Below, one piece after another: positions 11,905 to 49,866 of a stretch of DNA of 64,000 nucleotides (position 1 is its first letter; every line of letters starts with the position of its first letter). Under the pieces are notes generated by a model. That model was not told where the DNA came from. It saw only the letters and a program-made list of their open reading frames with translations, and did no database searches. The stretch comes from a virus (taxonomy: Duplodnaviria > Heunggongvirae > Uroviricota > Caudoviricetes), in the IMG/VR virus record IMGVR_UViG_2565956721_000002; one strand, given 5' to 3'. A program made the translations under genes and the position numbers.

Positions 11905-12193
11905 GATTAACTATCTCCTGCCACAGATAAAACGCCTTAAAATAACATTTTGTAGCATAAAGTTTCACCATGCAATGGTCAAAATCTTTGACCCATATCA
12001 ATTAAACTCATACATTTTAGTTACCAGAGAAATAATTTACATGGTTGCAAGTTGCTCTAATTATTTTATTTTTTTAGCTTCATATGCTACATTAACTTGC
12101 TTGCGTGCTAATGCATTTTCGGTTTATCCTAAACAGGCATCTTAGTAAAACGGATGCCGGGATTGGAACCCCGGATAATGCAAAAGGCGACAT

Positions 12194-12217
12194 AGACGCC
12201 AAAAGCGTCTTTTTTTG
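12194..12217 (+). terminator. intrinsic terminator-like hairpin plus T-run
   Basis: agacgc-caaaa-gcgtct followed by ttttttt. Confidence 0.5.
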
Positions 12218-12269
12218 TGTCATGCCATCGCACAACCATACGTAGCACATAGCTCCGAGATCAATGGTA

Positions 12270-12360
12270 GTGCTGGCTGGGCTGCCGAAAGGCAGGCCGG
12301 TTCCCTTTTGCGCCGGTAGTTCCAACCCAGTCAGTGCTACCGCCATTGAGATTGGAACCT
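12270..12360 (+). ncRNA. c4: candidate c4 antisense immunity RNA (structured RNA upstream of icd)
   Basis: Non-coding stretch just 5' of icd with a 9-bp outer stem (ctggctggg/cccagtcag) and internal hairpin (ctgcc-gaaa-ggcag); position matches P1 immI; boundaries approximate. Confidence 0.35.
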
Positions 12361-16166: not shown

Positions 16167-16348
16167 TACAATCGCTGCGGGTGCTTGAGGCTATCTGCTT
16201 CAGGCATTACCCGACAAGCAGATAGAAGAAAGCCCCAGATAAAATTACGCGTCCTGCAAGACGCTTAACATTAATCTGAGGCCATATCTATGCTTAGCAT
16301 ACGTAGATTAGCCCTCTCCCCTTTTTAGGAGCAAGGAATTTTTTACTG

Positions 16349-16981
16349 CTATGCCGCCTTTCCAATTATGGATTCAGCGACCAGAACAACCCCATGCTTA
16401 CTTCGATCTGGGTGTTCACTCCATATCTCGGATTCAGGAATACTTACCCCGTCATAGCAAACACGTTCGCCGTCAAACGGGTAATACTGAGCGGCATCGG
16501 TGTCGAGGATAAACACTTTTAGCTCGGAAGAGCGACGGGCGATGTGTTGCCAAAGAGCTTTTCCACCTTCGTATTGCTCATTATCACTGAGCAAAACAAC
16601 ACCAGCTTTTGAGGCTACGGTTTCGTAAACAAAAGTAGCTAAACCGACATCCCGGACGGTTCCATCAACCACGATACCTTCAATCTGGGCAACATCGCTA
16701 TCCTCCCAGAACTTCCTTACCAGTACGCCTTCAAGCTGCGGGCGACGTTGAAGTTCAAGAGTAGCGACAACCTTATGGCGCATATCACCATCGATAACAG
16801 AAGGCGCAGCCTCTATTACAGCTGCAAATGGGGTTTTGGAATCCCATATAACCTGGTAAAGCACACCCTGGATGGTAACTCCGTCCAGGATCGAAAATCG
16901 ACGAGCGACAGTACCCGGGGAGTACGACATTGGAATCACAGCCATTTTAGAGTCCCCCTTTAACAGTACAGGCACAAACAT
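16349..16981 (-). CDS. hypothetical protein (210 aa)
   Basis: ORF with AT-rich upstream region. Confidence 0.4.
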   Translation of the reverse strand: MFVPVLLKGDSKMAVIPMSYSPGTVARRFSILDGVTIQGVLYQVIWDSKTPFAAVIEAAPSVIDGDMRHKVVATLELQRRPQLEGVLVRKFWEDSDVAQIEGIVVDGTVRDVGLATFVYETVASKAGVVLLSDNEQYEGGKALWQHIARRSSELKVFILDTDAAQYYPFDGERVCYDGVSIPESEIWSEHPDRSKHGVVLVAESIIGKAA

Positions 16982-44904: not shown

Positions 44905-45428
44905 CGGTCAATGGGGCCATCGACTGGCTGAACCGCGCTTCTTATTTTTTCACCCTTGATCCATCCCCAGACAATATGCGGCGCGTTGGTCGTGGCCGCC
45001 GTCGCCGTGGTGTTTGTTATTGCATGGCACTACCCGATGTTAAAGAACGTGAAGTCAGAGATGGCGTTCTGTGCTTCCGTCGTGTGGCTGAACGCGGCAT
45101 GGAGCCAAAAAATACGAATTCTCCCGAGTGGTGGGCGTGGCGCTGGTCCGCACATTTCGGCCTTTGCGAAGATGAGAATGAAATTGCCAGCGGCAATAGT
45201 GCATATGGTGCTCTGAACCTGGCTTTCCATATCGGATTCAAACATGTAGCTCTGGTGGGCGTTGACGCTACGCAAGAACTACGCGTTCACTCCGGCGGCA
45301 CGCCAAAAAATCTAAGTCACCTGCCTTTGTTATTCCAGTCTGCGCGTGAACAGATTGACGTTGTTTCATGCGGGAAAATGGGAGGTATTCCGCAGATGAC
45401 TCTTAAAGAATGGCTGAAGAATACATGA
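44802..45428 (+). CDS. Rossmann-like protein, paralogue 2 (GSGPS motif)
   Basis: [10 protein letters not shown]...IIAVNG...[24 protein letters not shown]. Confidence 0.4.
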
Positions 45429-46102
45429 TGGCACCCACAATTTATCACCGTATCGACGGTACCAAATACAGGAATGTCTGGGTTGTTGGTGATCTGCATG
45501 GTTGCTACACCAGACTGATGTCCGAACTCCATCGTGTGGATTTTGACCCGGCGCAGGATTTACTGATATCGGTCGGCGACCTTATCGATCGCGGTACTGA
45601 AAATGTCGAATGTCTGGAACTATTGCAGATGCCCTGGTTCAGGGCAGTGATGGGGAACCATGAGCGGTTGATGCTCGATGCGTTAAGTCCTGATGGCAAC
45701 GTGAATAACTGGCTAATGAATGGCGGACAATGGTTCTTCATGCTGGACACTGATCAGGAAATATTAGCCAGGGCGCTGGTGGAGCTGGTAAAGCGTCTGC
45801 CCTATATCATTGAGTTGAACACCGGGCAAGAAACTATCGTTATAGCCCATGCCGACTATCCGGATAATGAATACCAATTCGGTAAGGAGGTGCCGCTTTT
45901 CAACGTTGTCTGGGCGCGCGAGCGTATCAGTGATTCGATGGATGATATTGGTGGCGAAATTTCGGGCGCAGATCGTTTTATCTTTGGTCACACTCCGGTG
46001 AAAAGCCCGAAGACATTCTGGAATCAGCAGTATATCGACACTGGTGCCGTATTTTGCGGAAACCTGACATTGATGAAAGTGAAAGGTGATGGTGCAGCAT
46101 GA
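45410..46102 (+). CDS. calcineurin-like Ser/Thr protein phosphatase (lambda PPase family)
   Basis: Motifs GDLHG, GDLIDRG, GNHE. Confidence 0.7.
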
Positions 46103-46800
46103 AGATTGCTTTAGTTCTTCGCTCTGGTGGTGACTATAACGCTTCCGATGTGCAGTGGCTGGTTAATCAACTGCCAAAAGACTATGAAATTATTTGCCTG
46201 ACAGACCTGAAGTGTTTACATGTACCTGGCGTCAAAGTTATCCCATTGATCAACCAGTGGCAAAAGTGCCGTGGCTGGTGGGCGAAAATCGAGTTGTTCC
46301 GACCGGATATAACCGATGATCTGTTCTATCTGGATTTGGACACGGTTATTGCCGGTGATATACGCCCAATCCTAGAGCATCCACCAACCAGCTTCACCAT
46401 GCTTAGGGATTTTTACCATCCACAATATCGTGGTAGCGGTGCCCTGTGGATACCAAATAGTGTTAAAGCGCATATCTGGAGTTCATTCTGGCAAGATCCG
46501 GAAGGTTGGATTTCTCGTTGTGTCACTACTGAGTGCTGGGGTGACCAGGGGTTCTTACGAAAGGTTATGGGCGATGATACACCAGCATTTCAGGATCTGT
46601 ATCCAGGATGGTTTGTAAGTTACAAGGCCGATGTTGTGGAACCTGGTTCAAAATATGCGAGCGCGCGTTACTCCAGGGGGAATGGGGCATTACCAAAAGA
46701 CTGCCGAATAATCTTTTTCCACGGCAAACCGCGACCTCGCGAAGTGTCAGAGGATTGGCTCCCCCTTATCAGCTCATTTTTTGAGCGAGAATCAGAATAA
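46099..46800 (+). CDS. hypothetical protein, possible nucleotide-sugar transferase fold (233 aa)
   Basis: DxD-like YLDLDTV motif; overlaps phosphatase gene stop. Confidence 0.35.
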
Positions 46801-46801
46801 T

Positions 46802-46818
46802 ATTGCTCTAATAATTCC
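46802..46818 (+). promoter_or_regulatory. C1 repressor operator
   Basis: attgctctaataattcc. Confidence 0.6.
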
Positions 46819-46826
46819 ATATTTTT

Positions 46827-46856
46827 AAAACGTGATGTACACTCATCACGTTTTTT
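46827..46856 (+). terminator. intrinsic terminator flanked by two inverted C1 operators
   Basis: cgtgatg-tacac-tcatcacg followed by tttttt. Confidence 0.6.
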
Positions 46857-46870
46857 ATTAGAGCAATCTA
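46854..46870 (-). promoter_or_regulatory. C1 repressor operator (inverted)
   Basis: Reverse strand agattgctctaataaaa. Confidence 0.55.
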
Positions 46871-46881
46871 CAAGGTGCACT

Positions 46882-47100
46882 ATGTGGCCATTCCGACGGA
46901 AATATCACTACTGGCTGATCGCCTTTGTTACGCCGACCGGCGGTATCAGGCATGTCATCACCAGGTATCGCAACAAGAGACTCACCTTAGCCAGAATTTT
47001 ACAGGCTGCCATAGGTGAGGGACTGGATACAAATTGCGTAGTCCTTCCTCCTTCATACTTAGGAAAAATGACCGAAGCACAAGCTAATACGGAACTTTGA
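46882..47100 (+). CDS. small hypothetical protein (72 aa)
   Basis: ORF only. Confidence 0.25.
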   Translation: MWPFRRKYHYWLIAFVTPTGGIRHVITRYRNKRLTLARILQAAIGEGLDTNCVVLPPSYLGKMTEAQANTEL

Positions 47101-47101
47101 A

Positions 47102-48364
47102 ATGATCACTTCAGCACAAAACCAATCAATCGAAAATGTATCTATCCCTGACGTCCTGAATGCCGGTATCCCGGCCATTATCCAGAACATCCGGGCCGCG
47201 CAACGCCGCGTTAGTTGTGATGACCTCACAGCGCGTTTTTTTGATAATGCGGTTCAGTCAGCGGAGATGCTTCACGCACAGCTTATTGATGTTTATAACG
47301 CAGAAGCTGATAGCCATAACTCCCTGGTAGATGCAGCTGAAAATATGCAGTTGGATCTCGGTCTGAAGGGTAAAGAAATTGAAGAGCTTCAGCTACAAAT
47401 TGAACATTTGAAACGCCAGCAACAGGACGCGATCGACAATGCGACGCATGACGCCAACCAGCGTGCTGATAATGCCGAACGTATAAGCATTGAGCTGGAA
47501 ACAAAACTCAATGAAATGACCGCGATGGTTGAACTGCGGAACTCACAGATTTCAACGCTAAAATCTCAATATAAAGAGATCATGAAACTTGATCCTTTTA
47601 ACCTTGAGAAACGCTATAACAAAGCTAAAAGCGAGCGACAGGAACTGCGTAAGCAGGTCGCCGACCTTAACCAACAGCTCAAAAAAACTATTAAAGATGC
47701 AAGCGAAGCGCGCGTGGCATTTGCTAATAAAAAAGCAGAGGTTACCGCGCTGGTTAATGAGAATGCCAAATTTGCGACGCTCAAGAAGGAAATGTATGGC
47801 ATTACTGAGCGCCGTTTCCCTGCAAGCAAACTTCATCCGACGTTAGGGCAAATCTCCTTCTTCCCGCGCCTCCTGGCTTATGGGATCTCATCGCCTAAAG
47901 AGTTCAATAACGAGCGTCCTTATATCGTTTCTAAGCTGGACTTTGCTTATCAGTTCTGCTGCGACATGGGCTATGCCATTGATATCCGAATCAACGAATG
48001 GTTGATGCCAAACTTCCAGCCGTTGGCAATTTTCCGCGAGTTCCAGCCGGAAGGTTGGGTAGAGTTCTTCCATGAATTGATCTGTAAAGAGATGGAAAGC
48101 CGCCGCCCGGAATTGGTCCGTCGAGTTGAGTGGGCGCAAGAGGTTATGTTGGCAGATGCAGAGCTGCCGTTCGAACCGGAATTCATTGATGATCTGGCAA
48201 CTAAAGGGTTGCATACCCTGTTTGATGTGGTTACCCGCCGTCATGAGCAGTTGGTTGTCGAATTGGGTTTAGAGGAAACAGCGGCAAGAAGACTTCTCGA
48301 TGTTTGCTATGCACGTAGCGATGCATGGGAAAAAGAGAACGGCGGCACTATTTACGTCCGCTGA
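47102..48364 (+). CDS. coiled-coil protein with C-terminal globular domain (420 aa)
   Basis: N-terminal half heptad-like and Q/E/K-rich; no recognised catalytic motif. Confidence 0.4.
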   Translation: MITSAQNQSIENVSIPDVLNAGIPAIIQNIRAAQRRVSCDDLTARFFDNAVQSAEMLHAQLIDVYNAEADSHNSLVDAAENMQLDLGLKGKEIEELQLQIEHLKRQQQDAIDNATHDANQRADNAERISIELETKLNEMTAMVELRNSQISTLKSQYKEIMKLDPFNLEKRYNKAKSERQELRKQVADLNQQLKKTIKDASEARVAFANKKAEVTALVNENAKFATLKKEMYGITERRFPASKLHPTLGQISFFPRLLAYGISSPKEFNNERPYIVSKLDFAYQFCCDMGYAIDIRINEWLMPNFQPLAIFREFQPEGWVEFFHELICKEMESRRPELVRRVEWAQEVMLADAELPFEPEFIDDLATKGLHTLFDVVTRRHEQLVVELGLEETAARRLLDVCYARSDAWEKENGGTIYVR

Positions 48365-48436
48365 TAGTTACAGCGTCACTTTTAATGCTGGTGGAGTGCG
48401 CCCACCAGCATTTTTTTCGTCCAATGAGGAGGGCAT

Positions 48437-48943
48437 TTGAGTATTTTCAATAAACACGCACACCAGGAACGTCCGTATATCGTCATAGTCGATATTGATG
48501 GAACAATATCAGAGGCAACTGAAGACAGACTGCATTTGCTTCCGCCACCAGGTAAAGGTGCATTAACAAAGGACTGGAACGAGTTTAATCTCGCCTGTGA
48601 CACCGATACTCCCATCACTCCGGTTATTGATATGGTGCGCCAGTTATTTAACGTTTACACGGTCTGGTTTGTAACCGGGCGCTGTGAGATCGCAAGGGAT
48701 AAAACACGAGCCTGGCTGCGGAAGTACGTAACAAACGGGGCTGAGCCTTTGCTATCTATGCGTCCTGCCACCGATGACAGAAATGACGGTCCAGCAAAGA
48801 TTGATCTCCTGAAGAAAATTGGTCTAAGTAAAATTGCGTTCGCGCTGGAAGATAAGATTGAAGTGGCGCGTGTTTTCAGGAGTCACGGCGTACTTACGTT
48901 AATGGTCAGGGAGTATGAAAACGCGCTTCTCCATCAACAATAA
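48437..48943 (+). CDS. HAD-superfamily phosphatase-like protein (168 aa)
   Basis: Motif I IVIVDIDGTIS (DxDGT); small Rossmannoid size. Confidence 0.5.
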   Translation: MSIFNKHAHQERPYIVIVDIDGTISEATEDRLHLLPPPGKGALTKDWNEFNLACDTDTPITPVIDMVRQLFNVYTVWFVTGRCEIARDKTRAWLRKYVTNGAEPLLSMRPATDDRNDGPAKIDLLKKIGLSKIAFALEDKIEVARVFRSHGVLTLMVREYENALLHQQ

Positions 48944-48959
48944 TTGCTCTAATAAATAT
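48943..48959 (+). promoter_or_regulatory. C1 repressor operator
   Basis: attgctctaataaatat. Confidence 0.65.
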
Positions 48960-49137
48960 TGATTTTTAAAACAGAGAAAGTGAAAATAAAAACATGCCGC
49001 AAGGCGCGGCATGTATCCAATCAATCACAGGAGCTGAAAATATGAACACGGCATTCAAAATCATTATGGCCGCGATCTATTTCTGGCTGTTCTCTATCAC
49101 TTTTGGCGGCATCGTCGCGCATGGGTAAGGGGGATGC

Positions 49138-49866
49138 ATGAAAGGCGAAGTGAAAGAGCGCGGCATGATTTTCAACGATGAGATGGTCCGAGCCATCCTC
49201 GAAGGAAGGAAAACGCAGACGCGGCGGATAATGAAAAATCAGCCTGCGGAAGTTGGTCCAGAAGCACCAGTGATGGTTAGGGAAATTGGTGCAGGTTTTC
49301 AGTGGTACGGGGCTGATGGTGTAAGCAGTGTTTTCAATTGCCCCTTTGGTATCGTCGGCGATCGAATTTGGGTTCGTGAAACATGGGCGATATTAGGCAA
49401 TGAAGATGGTTGCAGTGTGGACTGGAACGACAACCTTTGTCGTGGCGATGAGAAGAACGCAGCAAGGATTTATCGGGCCAGTTGTGAGCAAAAGCCTGGT
49501 GATTACGGTTTATGGTCGATACCCGATGATGCCGACTGGAAACCTCACACTGTGAATGAAAAGTTTGATGGTGGGTGGCGTCCATCAATTCACATGCCGC
49601 GATGGGCATCACGCATCCTGTTGGAAATTACCAACGTGCGCGTTGAGCGGTTGAACGATATCAGCGAATGCGATGCAAGGGATGAGGGCGTTCCGCCTGC
49701 TGGAAGTTTGCTTCCTGATCACCCGGGAACATTCCTTACTCCCAAGGGGGATTTCGCAATGGCCAAGGTTGCGTTCCAGCGTCTGTGGGAATCCATCTAT
49801 GGTGAAGAAAGCTGGAACGCTAATCCCTGGGTGTGGGTAATCGAGTTTAAGCGCATTCAGGAATAA
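49138..49866 (+). CDS. conserved phage protein with N-terminal GRKTQTRR motif (242 aa)
   Basis: MIFNDEMVRAILEGRKTQTRR recurs in prophage proteins; fold not certain. Confidence 0.35.
   Translation: MKGEVKERGMIFNDEMVRAILEGRKTQTRRIMKNQPAEVGPEAPVMVREIGAGFQWYGADGVSSVFNCPFGIVGDRIWVRETWAILGNEDGCSVDWNDNLCRGDEKNAARIYRASCEQKPGDYGLWSIPDDADWKPHTVNEKFDGGWRPSIHMPRWASRILLEITNVRVERLNDISECDARDEGVPPAGSLLPDHPGTFLTPKGDFAMAKVAFQRLWESIYGEESWNANPWVWVIEFKRIQE

What the first reader, a model, noticed from the sequence alone, without database searches (positions are those of the whole stretch)
46871..48960. Operator-flanked module with a coiled-coil protein and a HAD-type phosphatase
A 72-aa ORF, a 420-aa coiled-coil protein and a 168-aa protein with a DxDGT HAD motif are bracketed by C1 operators at 46854 and 48943. 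HAD phosphatases of this size include polynucleotide 3'-phosphatase-like enzymes that heal nuclease-damaged RNA. Next to phage-encoded tRNAs, a tRNA or nucleotide repair role is conceivable but unproven.
Basis: inference. Interest (0 to 1): 0.4.

Follow-up and report, generated by a model that had tools for sequence, protein, structure and literature searches.

The report
Phage P1 pmgR-pmgS-pap operon
This stretch is the already annotated pmgR-pmgS-pap gene cluster of a P1-type phage, and its small phosphatase is a kinase-less relative of the phosphatase half of T4 polynucleotide kinase, so the finding is real but ordinary.

Summary
The three ORFs, the DxDGT motif and the C1 operator sites are all present. 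The region is 98.5% identical to phage P1 and 99.8% identical to a P1-like phage. There it is annotated as pmgR, pmgS and pap, with operators OpmgRa/OpmgRb (Op86a/b) upstream and OpmgT (Op88) downstream.

The "bracket" is not a unit. The downstream operator belongs to the promoter of the next operon. A second upstream operator was not mentioned. A conserved intrinsic terminator separates pmgS from pap.

The tRNA-repair idea is not supported:
- No kinase domain or RNA ligase was detectable in the 64-kb window.
- The tRNA genes lie about 13-15 kb away.
- Published in-frame deletions of pap and pmgS give no plaque defect.
- In other phages, stand-alone Pap homologs sit among DNA nucleases and dNMP kinases.

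PmgR is a published essential head-completion factor. PmgS is a coiled-coil protein with a C-terminal (HhH)2-like domain, always paired with pmgR.

Verdict: already known, low interest.

The parts
46802..46818 (+). C1 operator OpmgRa (former Op86a), overlapping the predicted -35 of promoter PpmgR
   Evidence: Operator consensus match with 3 mismatches. Same position as the annotated protein_bind feature in P1 AF234172. Conserved in divergent P1-like loci L004 and L005.
46827..46854 (+). Hairpin followed by a U-run, lying between the two operators. Probably the intrinsic terminator of the upstream pmgN-pmgQ operon. Its U-tract overlaps OpmgRb.
   Evidence: RNA fold gives -13.4 kcal/mol, z -4.55, with 0 of 200 shuffles as stable. 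The stem is kept with different sequence in L005 and L004. The terminator role is inferred.
46851..46867 (-). C1 operator OpmgRb (former Op86b)
   Evidence: Operator consensus match and P1 annotation.
46882..47100 (+). pmgR, 72 aa. [quoted passage not shown]
   Evidence: 98.5% nucleotide identity to P1, where it is annotated PmgR. phrog_3177 at E 4e-47. Deletion gives unjoined heads and tails and is complemented in trans (PMC9024508). A 35%-identical homolog precedes the PmgS homolog in the distant element L003.
47102..48364 (+). pmgS, 420 aa. Layout: a long antiparallel coiled coil (about residues 41-236), a small beta-rich domain (about 238-304), then a helical region ending in an (HhH)2-like domain (about 359-412). 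The start codon lies 1 nt after the pmgR stop.
48384..48419 (+). Intrinsic terminator (11-bp stem, 7-nt loop, U7) between pmgS and pap
   Evidence: Terminator scan. Fold gives -18.1 kcal/mol, z -4.31. Identical in P1 and kept, with some base changes, in the 79%-Pap relative L005.
48437..48943 (+). pap, 168 aa, TTG start behind a GGAGG ribosome-binding site. A stand-alone PNKP-type DxDxT (HAD) phosphatase.
48943..48959 (+). C1 operator OpmgT (former Op88). It belongs to the promoters of the next operon (pmgT and following genes) and is not part of this unit.
   Evidence: Operator match with 1 mismatch. P1 annotation shows overlap with promoters P1pmgT and P2pmgT.

Best explanation
The region is the pmgR-pmgS-pap gene cluster of a P1-type phage or phage-plasmid (Punavirus).

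**Regulation.** Transcription starts at the C1-repressed promoter PpmgR, which is guarded by two operators, so the genes are silent in the prophage and switched on after derepression. The promoter is a prediction taken from the P1 annotation.

**PmgS.** Its start codon lies 1 nt after the pmgR stop, suggesting translational coupling. It is a dispensable coiled-coil protein with a C-terminal (HhH)2-like domain. Because the pair is always found together, it probably acts with PmgR through DNA or protein contacts (inferred).

**Pap expression.** A conserved intrinsic terminator after pmgS lets only read-through transcripts reach pap (inferred). This, together with the TTG start, would keep Pap levels low.

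**Pap chemistry.** Pap is a stand-alone, Mg2+-dependent DxDxT acyl-phosphatase homologous to the C-terminal 3'-phosphatase domain of T4 polynucleotide kinase-phosphatase. Proposed residue roles:
- D19 is the nucleophile that forms the aspartyl-phosphate intermediate.
- D21 is the general acid-base.
- T80 and K121 hold the phosphate.
- D139 holds the metal.

The chemistry is inferred from conserved residues and was not assayed.

**Pap role.** The most likely substrate is a 3'-phosphate on DNA or oligonucleotide ends, or on 3'-mononucleotides. Removing it would clear blocked ends for exonucleases, polymerases or ligases, or feed nucleotide salvage. This would be a dispensable accessory function that host enzymes may cover. 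The role is inferred from the gene company of homologs in other phages.
For: **Identity.**
- 98.5% nucleotide identity over 2.5 kb to P1, and 99.8% to vB_EcoM-813R1.
- The P1 record annotates pmgR, pmgS, pap and the three operators at exactly matching positions.
- Operator matches number 10 against 0.25 expected.

**PmgR and PmgS.**
- The pmgR knockout gives unjoined heads and tails, and plaque formation is rescued in trans (PMC9024508).
- pmgS and pap are non-essential by in-frame deletion and by CRISPRi.
- The pmgR-pmgS pair is kept at 35% and 27% identity in a distant 97-kb element that lacks pap.

**Pap family.**
- PF25109 at E 7.8e-12; PHROG families.
- The best natural-protein PDB sequence hit is Pnkp1 4xrp.
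- hhalign probability 95.4%, E 1.9e-8, and BLASTP E 7e-6 against T4 PseT residues 154-296.
- D19, D21, T23, R31, D57, R109, D113, K121 and D139 are invariant across 17 sequences including T4; T80, R82 and D117 are at least 90% conserved.
- The roles of the T4 equivalents D165, D167, S211, K258 and D278 are taken from PMC3592404.

**Stand-alone architecture is the norm.**
- 7949 cluster representatives match at E 0.001 or better. The best 150 are nearly all 140-200 aa. Four of the roughly 300-aa ones tested carry an AAA_33 kinase domain.

**Gene company of homologs.**
- A dNMP-kinase-family gene (phrog_139, E 1e-45 to 1e-51) lies within about 1 kb downstream in 6 of 7 sampled GenBank phages, immediately adjacent in 5.
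- It lies within 1.6 kb downstream in 21 of 54 non-P1 IMG/VR loci, and directly adjacent in 16.
- Exonuclease, endonuclease VII, phosphoesterase or DNA ligase genes lie alongside.
- A DEDD exonuclease gene is inserted between pmgS and pap in a divergent P1-like element.
Against: - No enzymatic data exist for Pap or any stand-alone homolog that I could find.
- The Pap model is of low overall confidence: pLDDT 60, with the 22-59 cap region below 50. The fold match rests on the core only.
- In P1-like elements Pap has none of the DNA-metabolism neighbours seen elsewhere. No dNMP kinase is present in the window. Context transfer from other phages is therefore indirect.
- The sampled loci are not phylogenetically independent, and 31 of 54 IMG/VR loci showed no dNMP kinase with my narrow profile.
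- T4 Pnkp phosphatase itself acts on both RNA and DNA ends, so homology does not separate RNA from DNA substrates.
- The terminator read-through model and the PpmgR promoter are predictions.
- The PmgS-PmgR interaction and any DNA binding by PmgS are untested.
Confidence: 0.6

Rival explanations
1. RNA or tRNA repair. Pap would heal 2',3'-cyclic or 3'-phosphate ends of tRNAs cut by host anticodon nucleases or toxin RNases, so that they can be religated, possibly in concert with the phage tRNA genes.
For: - Pap is homologous to the phosphatase domains of two bona fide RNA-repair enzymes, T4 Pnkp and Pnkp1.
- T4 Pnkp phosphatase removes RNA 3'-, 2'- and 2',3'-cyclic phosphates (PMC3592404).
- P1 carries tRNA genes.
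- Ppp, three genes upstream of pap, is a lambda-phosphatase homolog. Lambda phosphatase has 2',3'-cyclic phosphodiesterase activity (PMC2190708 abstract).
Against: - No 5'-kinase domain is present in Pap or elsewhere in the window, and no Rnl1/Rnl2-like ligase was found by phmmer or profile search. These searches have limited sensitivity.
- From general knowledge, the host ligase RtcB needs a 3'-phosphate or cyclic phosphate end. A lone 3'-phosphatase would produce 3'-OH/5'-OH ends that neither ligase type can join.
- The tRNAs are about 13-15 kb away in other operons.
- Among the best relatives, only a few are fused to a kinase.
- Neighbours of stand-alone homologs are DNA or nucleotide enzymes.
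- There is no plaque defect on deletion.
Confidence: 0.1
2. Virion morphogenesis module. All three genes, including Pap, would serve head completion, as the historical 'pmg' (putative morphogenetic) naming and the PHROG label 'PmgS-like head morphogenesis' suggest.
For: - pmgR deletion blocks head-tail joining.
- pmgS is tightly linked to pmgR and co-conserved with it.
- The genes share a C1-controlled promoter region.
Against: - pmgS and pap deletions and knockdowns give normal plaques.
- PmgS is not mentioned anywhere in the main text of the virion-proteome study.
- pap is absent from the distant element that keeps pmgR-pmgS.
- pap is separated from pmgS by a terminator.
- A nucleic-acid phosphatase fold has no known assembly role.
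- The 'head morphogenesis' label traces to a name, not to an experiment.
Confidence: 0.1
3. Counter-defence or signalling phosphatase. Pap would dephosphorylate a small nucleotide carrying a 3'- or 2',3'-cyclic phosphate, for example a defence-system messenger or pAp-type molecule, rather than polynucleotide ends.
For: - T4 Pnkp phosphatase accepts the mononucleotide 3'-TMP (PMC3592404).
- Pap sits in an early, repressor-controlled, dispensable accessory region, next to other host-interaction-type genes: a Ser/Thr phosphatase homolog (Ppp) and PmgQ, whose PHROG family is labelled glycosyltransferase.
- The stand-alone clade has an insertion of about 18 residues after the DxDGT motif (HRLHLLP...W.xFN) that T4 lacks. 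This could alter specificity.
Against: - There is no direct evidence.
- Antirestriction activity was unchanged in the deletion set that included pap.
- The context in other phages points to bulk DNA or nucleotide metabolism.
Confidence: 0.07
4. Generic class B/C 'acid phosphatase', which is the original meaning of the gene name pap.
For: - The P1 record calls it a putative acid phosphatase.
- There is a weak Pfam hit to PF03767 Acid_phosphat_B (E 0.02).
Against: - The PF03767 score of 14.9 bits is below the 27-bit cut-off, whereas PF25109 scores 46 bits against a 27.6 cut-off.
- Reading the sequence directly, the N-terminus (MSIFNKHAHQERPYIV...) shows no hydrophobic signal-peptide-like stretch, as would be expected for periplasmic or lipoprotein acid phosphatases.
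Confidence: 0.03

Closest known systems
Bacteriophage P1 pmgR-pmgS-pap with operators OpmgRa/OpmgRb (Op86a/b) and OpmgT (Op88), GenBank AF234172 / NC_005856
   Same: Same genes, same order, same operator positions and same pmgS-pap terminator. Nucleotide identity is 98.5% across the whole finding.
   Different: Only point differences within the finding. Downstream of the finding, the pmgT-position ORF is 242 aa here against 309 aa in P1. The window matches vB_EcoM-813R1 more closely, at 99.8%.
T4 polynucleotide kinase-phosphatase (PseT/Pnkp), C-terminal 3'-phosphatase domain (PDB 1ltq, 5uj0)
   Same: Same DxDxT HAD fold and a full set of equivalent catalytic residues. Pap to T4 equivalences are D19=D165, D21=D167, R31=R176, D57=D187, T80=S211, R82=R213, R109=R246, D113=D250, D117=D254, K121=K258 and D139=D278.
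   Different: Pap has no N-terminal P-loop 5'-kinase domain. It has an insertion of about 18 residues after the DxDGT motif. D277 is replaced by E138. Identity is only about 26%. There is no partner RNA ligase nearby.
Stand-alone PNKP-type phosphatases of Drexlerviridae, Kagunavirus-like and Autographiviridae phages (phrog_415; usually mislabelled 'polynucleotide kinase')
   Same: Same single-domain architecture of about 140-190 aa, 35-41% identity, and the same HRLHLLP insertion.
   Different: Those genes typically sit directly upstream of a dNMP kinase and beside exonuclease, endonuclease or ligase genes. The P1-type gene instead follows pmgS and has no such neighbours.
(HhH)2 domains such as the RAD51C N-terminal domain and the NusA C-terminal acidic repeat (for PmgS residues about 350-412)
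   Different: Fold-level resemblance only, at 19% identity. No Pfam hit was found for this PmgS itself. The rest of PmgS (coiled coil plus beta domain) has no structural counterpart in PDB or BFVD.

Membership tests
P1 (Punavirus) pmgR-pmgS-pap locus | Near-identical nucleotide sequence and gene order to the annotated P1 locus | tested here: met
   Identity is 98.5% over 2501 nt to AF234172 and NC_005856. All 19 phage records matched are P1/P7-like. The annotation table matches ORF for ORF.
P1 (Punavirus) pmgR-pmgS-pap locus | C1 repressor operators at the pmgR and pmgT promoters | tested here: met
   Sites at 46802-46818, 46851-46867 and 48943-48959 match the 17-nt consensus. There are 10 matches in the window against 0.25 expected. 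Positions equal the P1 protein_bind features. Binding itself was not tested here.
PNKP-type HAD phosphatase domain (Pfam PF25109; T4 Pnkp C-terminal domain) | Profile score above the curated family threshold | tested here: met
   46.0 bits against a 27.6 cut-off, E 7.8e-12. phrog_415 at E 3.3e-57 and phrog_505 at E 4.3e-17, the latter matching profile positions 156-292 of 295.
PNKP-type HAD phosphatase domain (Pfam PF25109; T4 Pnkp C-terminal domain) | DxDxT motif with nucleophile Asp and general acid-base Asp (T4 D165, D167) | tested here: met
   D19-I-D21-G-T23 aligns to D165-V-D167-G-T169. D19, D21 and T23 are invariant in 17 sequences. Roles are from PMC3592404.
PNKP-type HAD phosphatase domain (Pfam PF25109; T4 Pnkp C-terminal domain) | Phosphate-binding Ser/Thr and Lys, and metal-binding Asp (T4 S211, K258, D278) | tested here: met
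   T80, K121 and D139 align to S211, K258 and D278. Roles are from PMC3592404.
PNKP-type HAD phosphatase domain (Pfam PF25109; T4 Pnkp C-terminal domain) | Closest three-dimensional fold is the Pnkp phosphatase domain | tested here: met
PNKP-type HAD phosphatase domain (Pfam PF25109; T4 Pnkp C-terminal domain) | Mg2+-dependent 3'-phosphomonoesterase activity on nucleic-acid ends or 3'-nucleotides | not testable with these tools
   Needs an enzyme assay.
Bifunctional polynucleotide kinase-phosphatase / RNA healing-and-sealing system (T4 Pnkp + Rnl1 type) | P-loop 5'-OH polynucleotide kinase domain fused to or next to the phosphatase | tested here: not met
   Pap is 168 aa and a single domain. 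The T4 kinase domain and a 5-sequence kinase profile found nothing in the six-frame ORFs of the window, with best E 0.79. Fused relatives do exist elsewhere.
Bifunctional polynucleotide kinase-phosphatase / RNA healing-and-sealing system (T4 Pnkp + Rnl1 type) | Partner RNA ligase encoded by the same element | tested here: not met
   phmmer with T4 Rnl1 and Rnl2 against all window ORFs of 40 aa or more gave a best E of 0.17. This covers the 64-kb window only and is a single-sequence search, so a very divergent ligase could be missed.
Class B/C bacterial acid phosphatase (PF03767) | Profile score above the family threshold | tested here: not met
(HhH)2 domain proteins (for PmgS C-terminus) | Two helix-hairpin-helix motifs forming a five-helix domain | tested here: inconclusive

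The most novel reading that the evidence does not exclude
Pap and the lambda-phosphatase-type Ppp, encoded three genes upstream, could together form a kinase-less 3'-end-healing pair. Ppp would open 2',3'-cyclic phosphates and Pap would remove the resulting 3'-phosphate. This would let P1 neutralise damage by host RNases or DNases that leave phosphorylated 3' ends, such as anticodon nucleases, toxin RNases or defence nucleases, using host enzymes for the remaining steps. That would be an RNA or DNA repair strategy different from the T4 Pnkp-Rnl1 pathway.
Probability: 0.07. Interest if true: 0.5.

Novelty: already known. Interest (0 to 1): 0.15.

Why it matters
It matters little as a discovery. 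The genes, the operators and the phosphatase homology are all already in public P1 annotation and protein-family libraries.

Three smaller points have value:
- The stand-alone PNKP-type phosphatase is very common: 7949 cluster representatives and more than 1100 phage records. It is routinely mislabelled 'polynucleotide kinase' although it lacks the kinase.
- Its recurrent placement next to dNMP kinase and DNA nucleases suggests a role in DNA-end or nucleotide metabolism rather than tRNA repair. This is cheap to test biochemically.
- PmgS, the constant partner of the essential head-completion factor PmgR, has a coiled coil plus (HhH)2-like layout that could guide work on how P1 finishes its heads.

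Tried and rejected
- **PmgS against PDB by sequence.** Only coiled-coil noise, with best E 0.13.
- **PmgS against NCBIfam.** Only SMC/Rad50 coiled-coil segments far below cut-off. Rejected as compositional.
- **PmgS model against the BFVD viral structure library.** No hit at E 0.001 or better. AFDB50 was not available.
- **Profile search for more PmgS relatives.** The family stays confined to P1-like elements of about 90-100 kb plus one 27%-identity clade.
- **PmgR.** No Pfam or NCBIfam family.
- **P-loop protein next to Pap homologs as a split polynucleotide kinase.** Rejected. Similarity to the Pnkp kinase covers the 19-residue P-loop only, the PDB search was uninformative, and PHROGs assigns it to dNMP kinase at E 1e-45 to 1e-51.
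- **T4 R176 equivalent.** The pairwise alignment suggested Pap K40, but the 17-sequence alignment places invariant R31 there. I adopt R31.
- **Literature.** The Lobocka 2004 P1 genome paper could not be read. A search for T4 phosphatase alanine-scan residues found nothing.
- **Promoter for pap.** The promoter scan found no convincing separate promoter between pmgS and pap.
Full report
**What is there**

The window carries three consecutive + strand ORFs:
- 46882-47100, 72 aa.
- 47102-48364, 420 aa.
- 48437-48943, 168 aa, with a TTG start behind a GGAGG ribosome-binding site.

The 168-aa protein carries D19-I-D21-G-T23.

A search with the P1 C1-operator consensus ATTGCTCTAATAAATTT, allowing up to 3 mismatches, gives 10 sites in the window against 0.25 expected from shuffles. 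Three of them are at 46802-46818 (+), 46851-46867 (-) and 48943-48959 (+). Two things were missed: one of the two upstream operators, and a strong intrinsic terminator between the second and third genes (48384-48412 plus U7, -18.1 kcal/mol, z -4.3).

**Identity**

Megablast of 46700-49200 against phage genomes gives 19 records, all P1/P7-like. Identity is 99.8% to vB_EcoM-813R1 and 98.5% to P1 itself.

In the curated P1 record the stretch is annotated as follows:
- pmgR, pmgS and pap.
- Operators OpmgRa and OpmgRb (former Op86a/b) at the predicted promoter PpmgR.
- Operator OpmgT (former Op88) overlapping the two predicted promoters of the next operon, which begins with pmgT.

The 'bracket' is thus two neighbouring C1-controlled operons, not a closed module. 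The window as a whole is P1-like, with C4 antisense RNA, three tRNAs and other P1 features.

**What is published**

- pmgR: an in-frame deletion abolishes infectious particles. Lysates contain tails and incomplete heads, and plaque formation is rescued in trans. [quoted passage not shown]
- pmgS, pap, ppp and pmgQ: in-frame deletions were made in the same study and fall among the 24 mutants with no plaquing or antirestriction defect.
- A CRISPRi screen also scores pmgS and pap as non-essential (PMC10695390).

**Pap**

Family evidence:
- Pfam gives PF25109 (HAD_PNKP) at 46 bits against a 27.6 cut-off. The acid-phosphatase family behind the gene's old name scores 14.9 bits against a 27 cut-off.
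- PHROGs gives two families labelled 'polynucleotide kinase'. One match covers positions 156-292 of a 295-position profile, which is the phosphatase half.
- The best natural protein in PDB by sequence is Pnkp1 of the Pnkp1/Rnl/Hen1 RNA-repair complex.

Structure:
- An AF2 model from a 9-sequence alignment is only moderately confident: pLDDT 60, core 70-85, residues 22-59 below 50.

Residue mapping against T4 PseT, fetched from NC_000866:
- hhalign gives 95.4% probability and BLASTP gives E 7e-6 over T4 residues 154-296.
- In a 17-sequence alignment including T4, these Pap residues are invariant: D19, D21, T23, R31, D57, R109, D113, K121 and D139. T80, R82 and D117 are at least 90% conserved.
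- They correspond to T4 D165 (nucleophile), D167 (general acid-base), S211 and K258 (phosphate contacts) and D278 (Mg2+). Those roles are described in PMC3592404.
- They also correspond to R176, D187, R213, R246, D250 and D254. I recall several of these as essential from earlier T4 mutagenesis, but I could not retrieve that paper.

Pap is therefore a member of the PNKP-type phosphatase family by every sequence and fold criterion I could test. Catalysis itself is untested.

**Why not tRNA repair**

- Pap has no kinase domain.
- The T4 kinase domain, a five-sequence kinase profile, and T4 Rnl1 and Rnl2 find nothing among all six-frame ORFs of the 64-kb window.
- The tRNA genes are at 33429-35658, about 13-15 kb upstream and separated by many genes on both strands.
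- From general knowledge, a lone 3'-phosphatase would turn 3'-P/5'-OH breaks into 3'-OH/5'-OH ends. Neither classical ligases nor RtcB can join those.

**What the relatives say**

A full-library profile search finds 7949 cluster representatives at E 0.001 or better. The best 150 are nearly all 140-200 aa. Four of the roughly 300-aa ones that I tested carry AAA_33 kinase plus HAD_PNKP. The stand-alone form is therefore the common one, and it is widely mislabelled 'polynucleotide kinase' in phage records (1175 records).

Sampled GenBank contexts:
- The homolog is followed by a P-loop gene in 6 of 7 phages from Drexlerviridae, a Kagunavirus-like phage and Autographiviridae.
- I first suspected that gene was a split polynucleotide kinase. 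It is in fact a dNMP-kinase-family gene: phrog_139 at E 1e-45 to 1e-51, confirmed with my own profile. Similarity to the Pnkp kinase covers only the 19-residue P-loop.
- Upstream neighbours are exonuclease, phosphoesterase or endonuclease genes. In Pseudomonas phage MR4 a DNA ligase follows.

IMG/VR loci:
- Of 80 loci, all 26 P1-like ones have PmgS upstream and no kinase.
- Of the 54 others, 21 have the dNMP kinase within 1.6 kb downstream, 16 of them directly adjacent, and 2 are true kinase fusions.
- These loci are not phylogenetically independent.
- Where the kinase is absent, neighbours still include exonuclease, endonuclease VII, RNA polymerase or a dNTP pyrophosphohydrolase-like protein.

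In one divergent P1-like element (Pap 58% identical), a DEDD 3'-5' exonuclease (PF16473, E 3e-50) and a 101-aa ORF are inserted between pmgS and pap.

Together this points to DNA-end or nucleotide metabolism. The likely job is removing 3'-phosphates that block exonucleases, polymerases or ligases, or dephosphorylating 3'-mononucleotides. That is my preferred reading of Pap's role, held with moderate confidence. In P1 itself none of these neighbours is present.

**PmgS and PmgR**

- The pmgS start codon lies 1 nt after the pmgR stop.
- PmgS relatives are confined to P1-like elements, apart from one clade at 26-28% identity, one member of which lies on a 97-kb contig.
- In that element a 75-aa protein 35% identical to PmgR sits directly upstream, and no pap follows. 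The conserved unit is therefore pmgR-pmgS, with pap as an add-on.
- The PmgS model (pLDDT 75) shows helices 41-160 and 168-236 forming a long hairpin, then a beta-rich region at 238-304, then a helical C-terminus.
- Nothing matches the whole protein in PDB or BFVD.
- A DNA- or protein-contact role alongside PmgR is an inference only.

**Regulatory anatomy**

- Between the two pmgR operators lies a hairpin at 46827-46854 (-13.4 kcal/mol, z -4.6) followed by a U-run that overlaps OpmgRb.
- Its stem is kept with different sequence in two divergent P1-like loci.
- It looks like the terminator of the upstream pmgN-pmgQ operon, placed so that transcripts from PpmgR, which would start inside the stem, escape it. 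This is inferred.
- The pmgS-pap terminator is identical in P1 and maintained in the 79%-Pap relative.
- No separate pap promoter was detected. Read-through plus the TTG start would therefore give low Pap expression. This too is inferred.

**Verdict**

The family assignment of the phosphatase is supported. The tRNA-repair interpretation and the 'bracketed module' idea are not supported. Everything essential is already in the P1 literature and family databases, so novelty is 'already known' and interest is low.

Noticed in passing
window 46827-46854 (+), between operators at 46802-46818 and 46851-46867: A stable hairpin plus U-run sits between the two pmgR operators, and its U-tract overlaps OpmgRb. 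The stem is conserved with sequence changes in divergent P1-like loci L005 and L004. It is probably the terminator of the upstream pmgN-pmgQ operon, nested inside the pmgR promoter-operator region.
   Followed up: partly
window 48384-48419 (+): A conserved intrinsic terminator lies between pmgS and pap. The P1 note says the operators control 'pmgR and pmgS', so pap expression probably depends on read-through.
   Followed up: partly
window 48992-49014, and ORF 48994-49128 (+): A GC-rich hairpin lies just downstream of the OpmgT promoters and has a T-run only on the minus strand. It overlaps the start of a small hydrophobic ORF (MNTAFKIIMAAIYFWLFSITFGGIVAHG from an internal ATG), which is annotated 'membrane protein' in phage SJ46.
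   Followed up: no
L004:4135-5001 (divergent P1-like contig, Logan SRR27421428): A DEDD 3'-5' exonuclease (PF16473 Rv2179c-like, E 3e-50) and a 101-aa ORF are inserted between the pmgS and pap homologs.
   Followed up: partly
L003:5764-7287 (97-kb contig, Logan SRR5240340): A distant P1-like element keeps a pmgR-pmgS pair (35% and 27% identity) but has no pap. The conserved unit is therefore pmgR-pmgS.
   Followed up: partly
L010-L015 and 21 of 54 non-P1 IMG/VR loci (L043-L096): Stand-alone Pap homologs in Drexlerviridae, Kagunavirus-like and Autographiviridae phages lie directly upstream of a dNMP-kinase-family gene (phrog_139), and often downstream of exonuclease or phosphoesterase genes. 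The phosphatase is commonly mislabelled 'polynucleotide kinase'.
   Followed up: partly
Public records ON470617.2 (L002), MH160767.1 / NC_050153.1: There are annotation errors. In ON470617 the product names are shifted by one gene: 'Ppp' is on pmgQ, 'PmgS' is on pap, and '3'-phosphatase, 5'-polynucleotide kinase' is on the pmgT-position gene. pmgS is also split into two CDS there. In MH160767 and NC_050153, one of the genes under the match carries the label 'RNA-directed RNA polymerase L'; by position it is probably the pmgS homolog, but I did not check which gene.
   Followed up: no
window 45410-46102 (+), ppp: This lambda-type Ser/Thr phosphatase homolog (PF00149; NF008516 at E 6e-82) also shows weak similarity to the metallophosphoesterase module of bacterial Pnkp (TIGR04075, E 7.7e-11, far below cut-off). 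It lies three genes upstream of pap.
   Followed up: no
window 49138-49866 (+): The first large gene after OpmgT is 242 aa here, as in vB_EcoM-813R1, whereas P1 pmgT is 309 aa. The region downstream of the finding seems to differ from P1. The ORF has no Pfam or NCBIfam family, and its best PHROG is phrog_874 (unknown function).
   Followed up: no
window 16179-16353 (+), 12137-12215 (+), 12260-12347 (+): Rfam finds a sok antitoxin RNA (89.6 bits), an isrK-like RNA and the C4 antisense RNA of the P1 immunity region.
   Followed up: no
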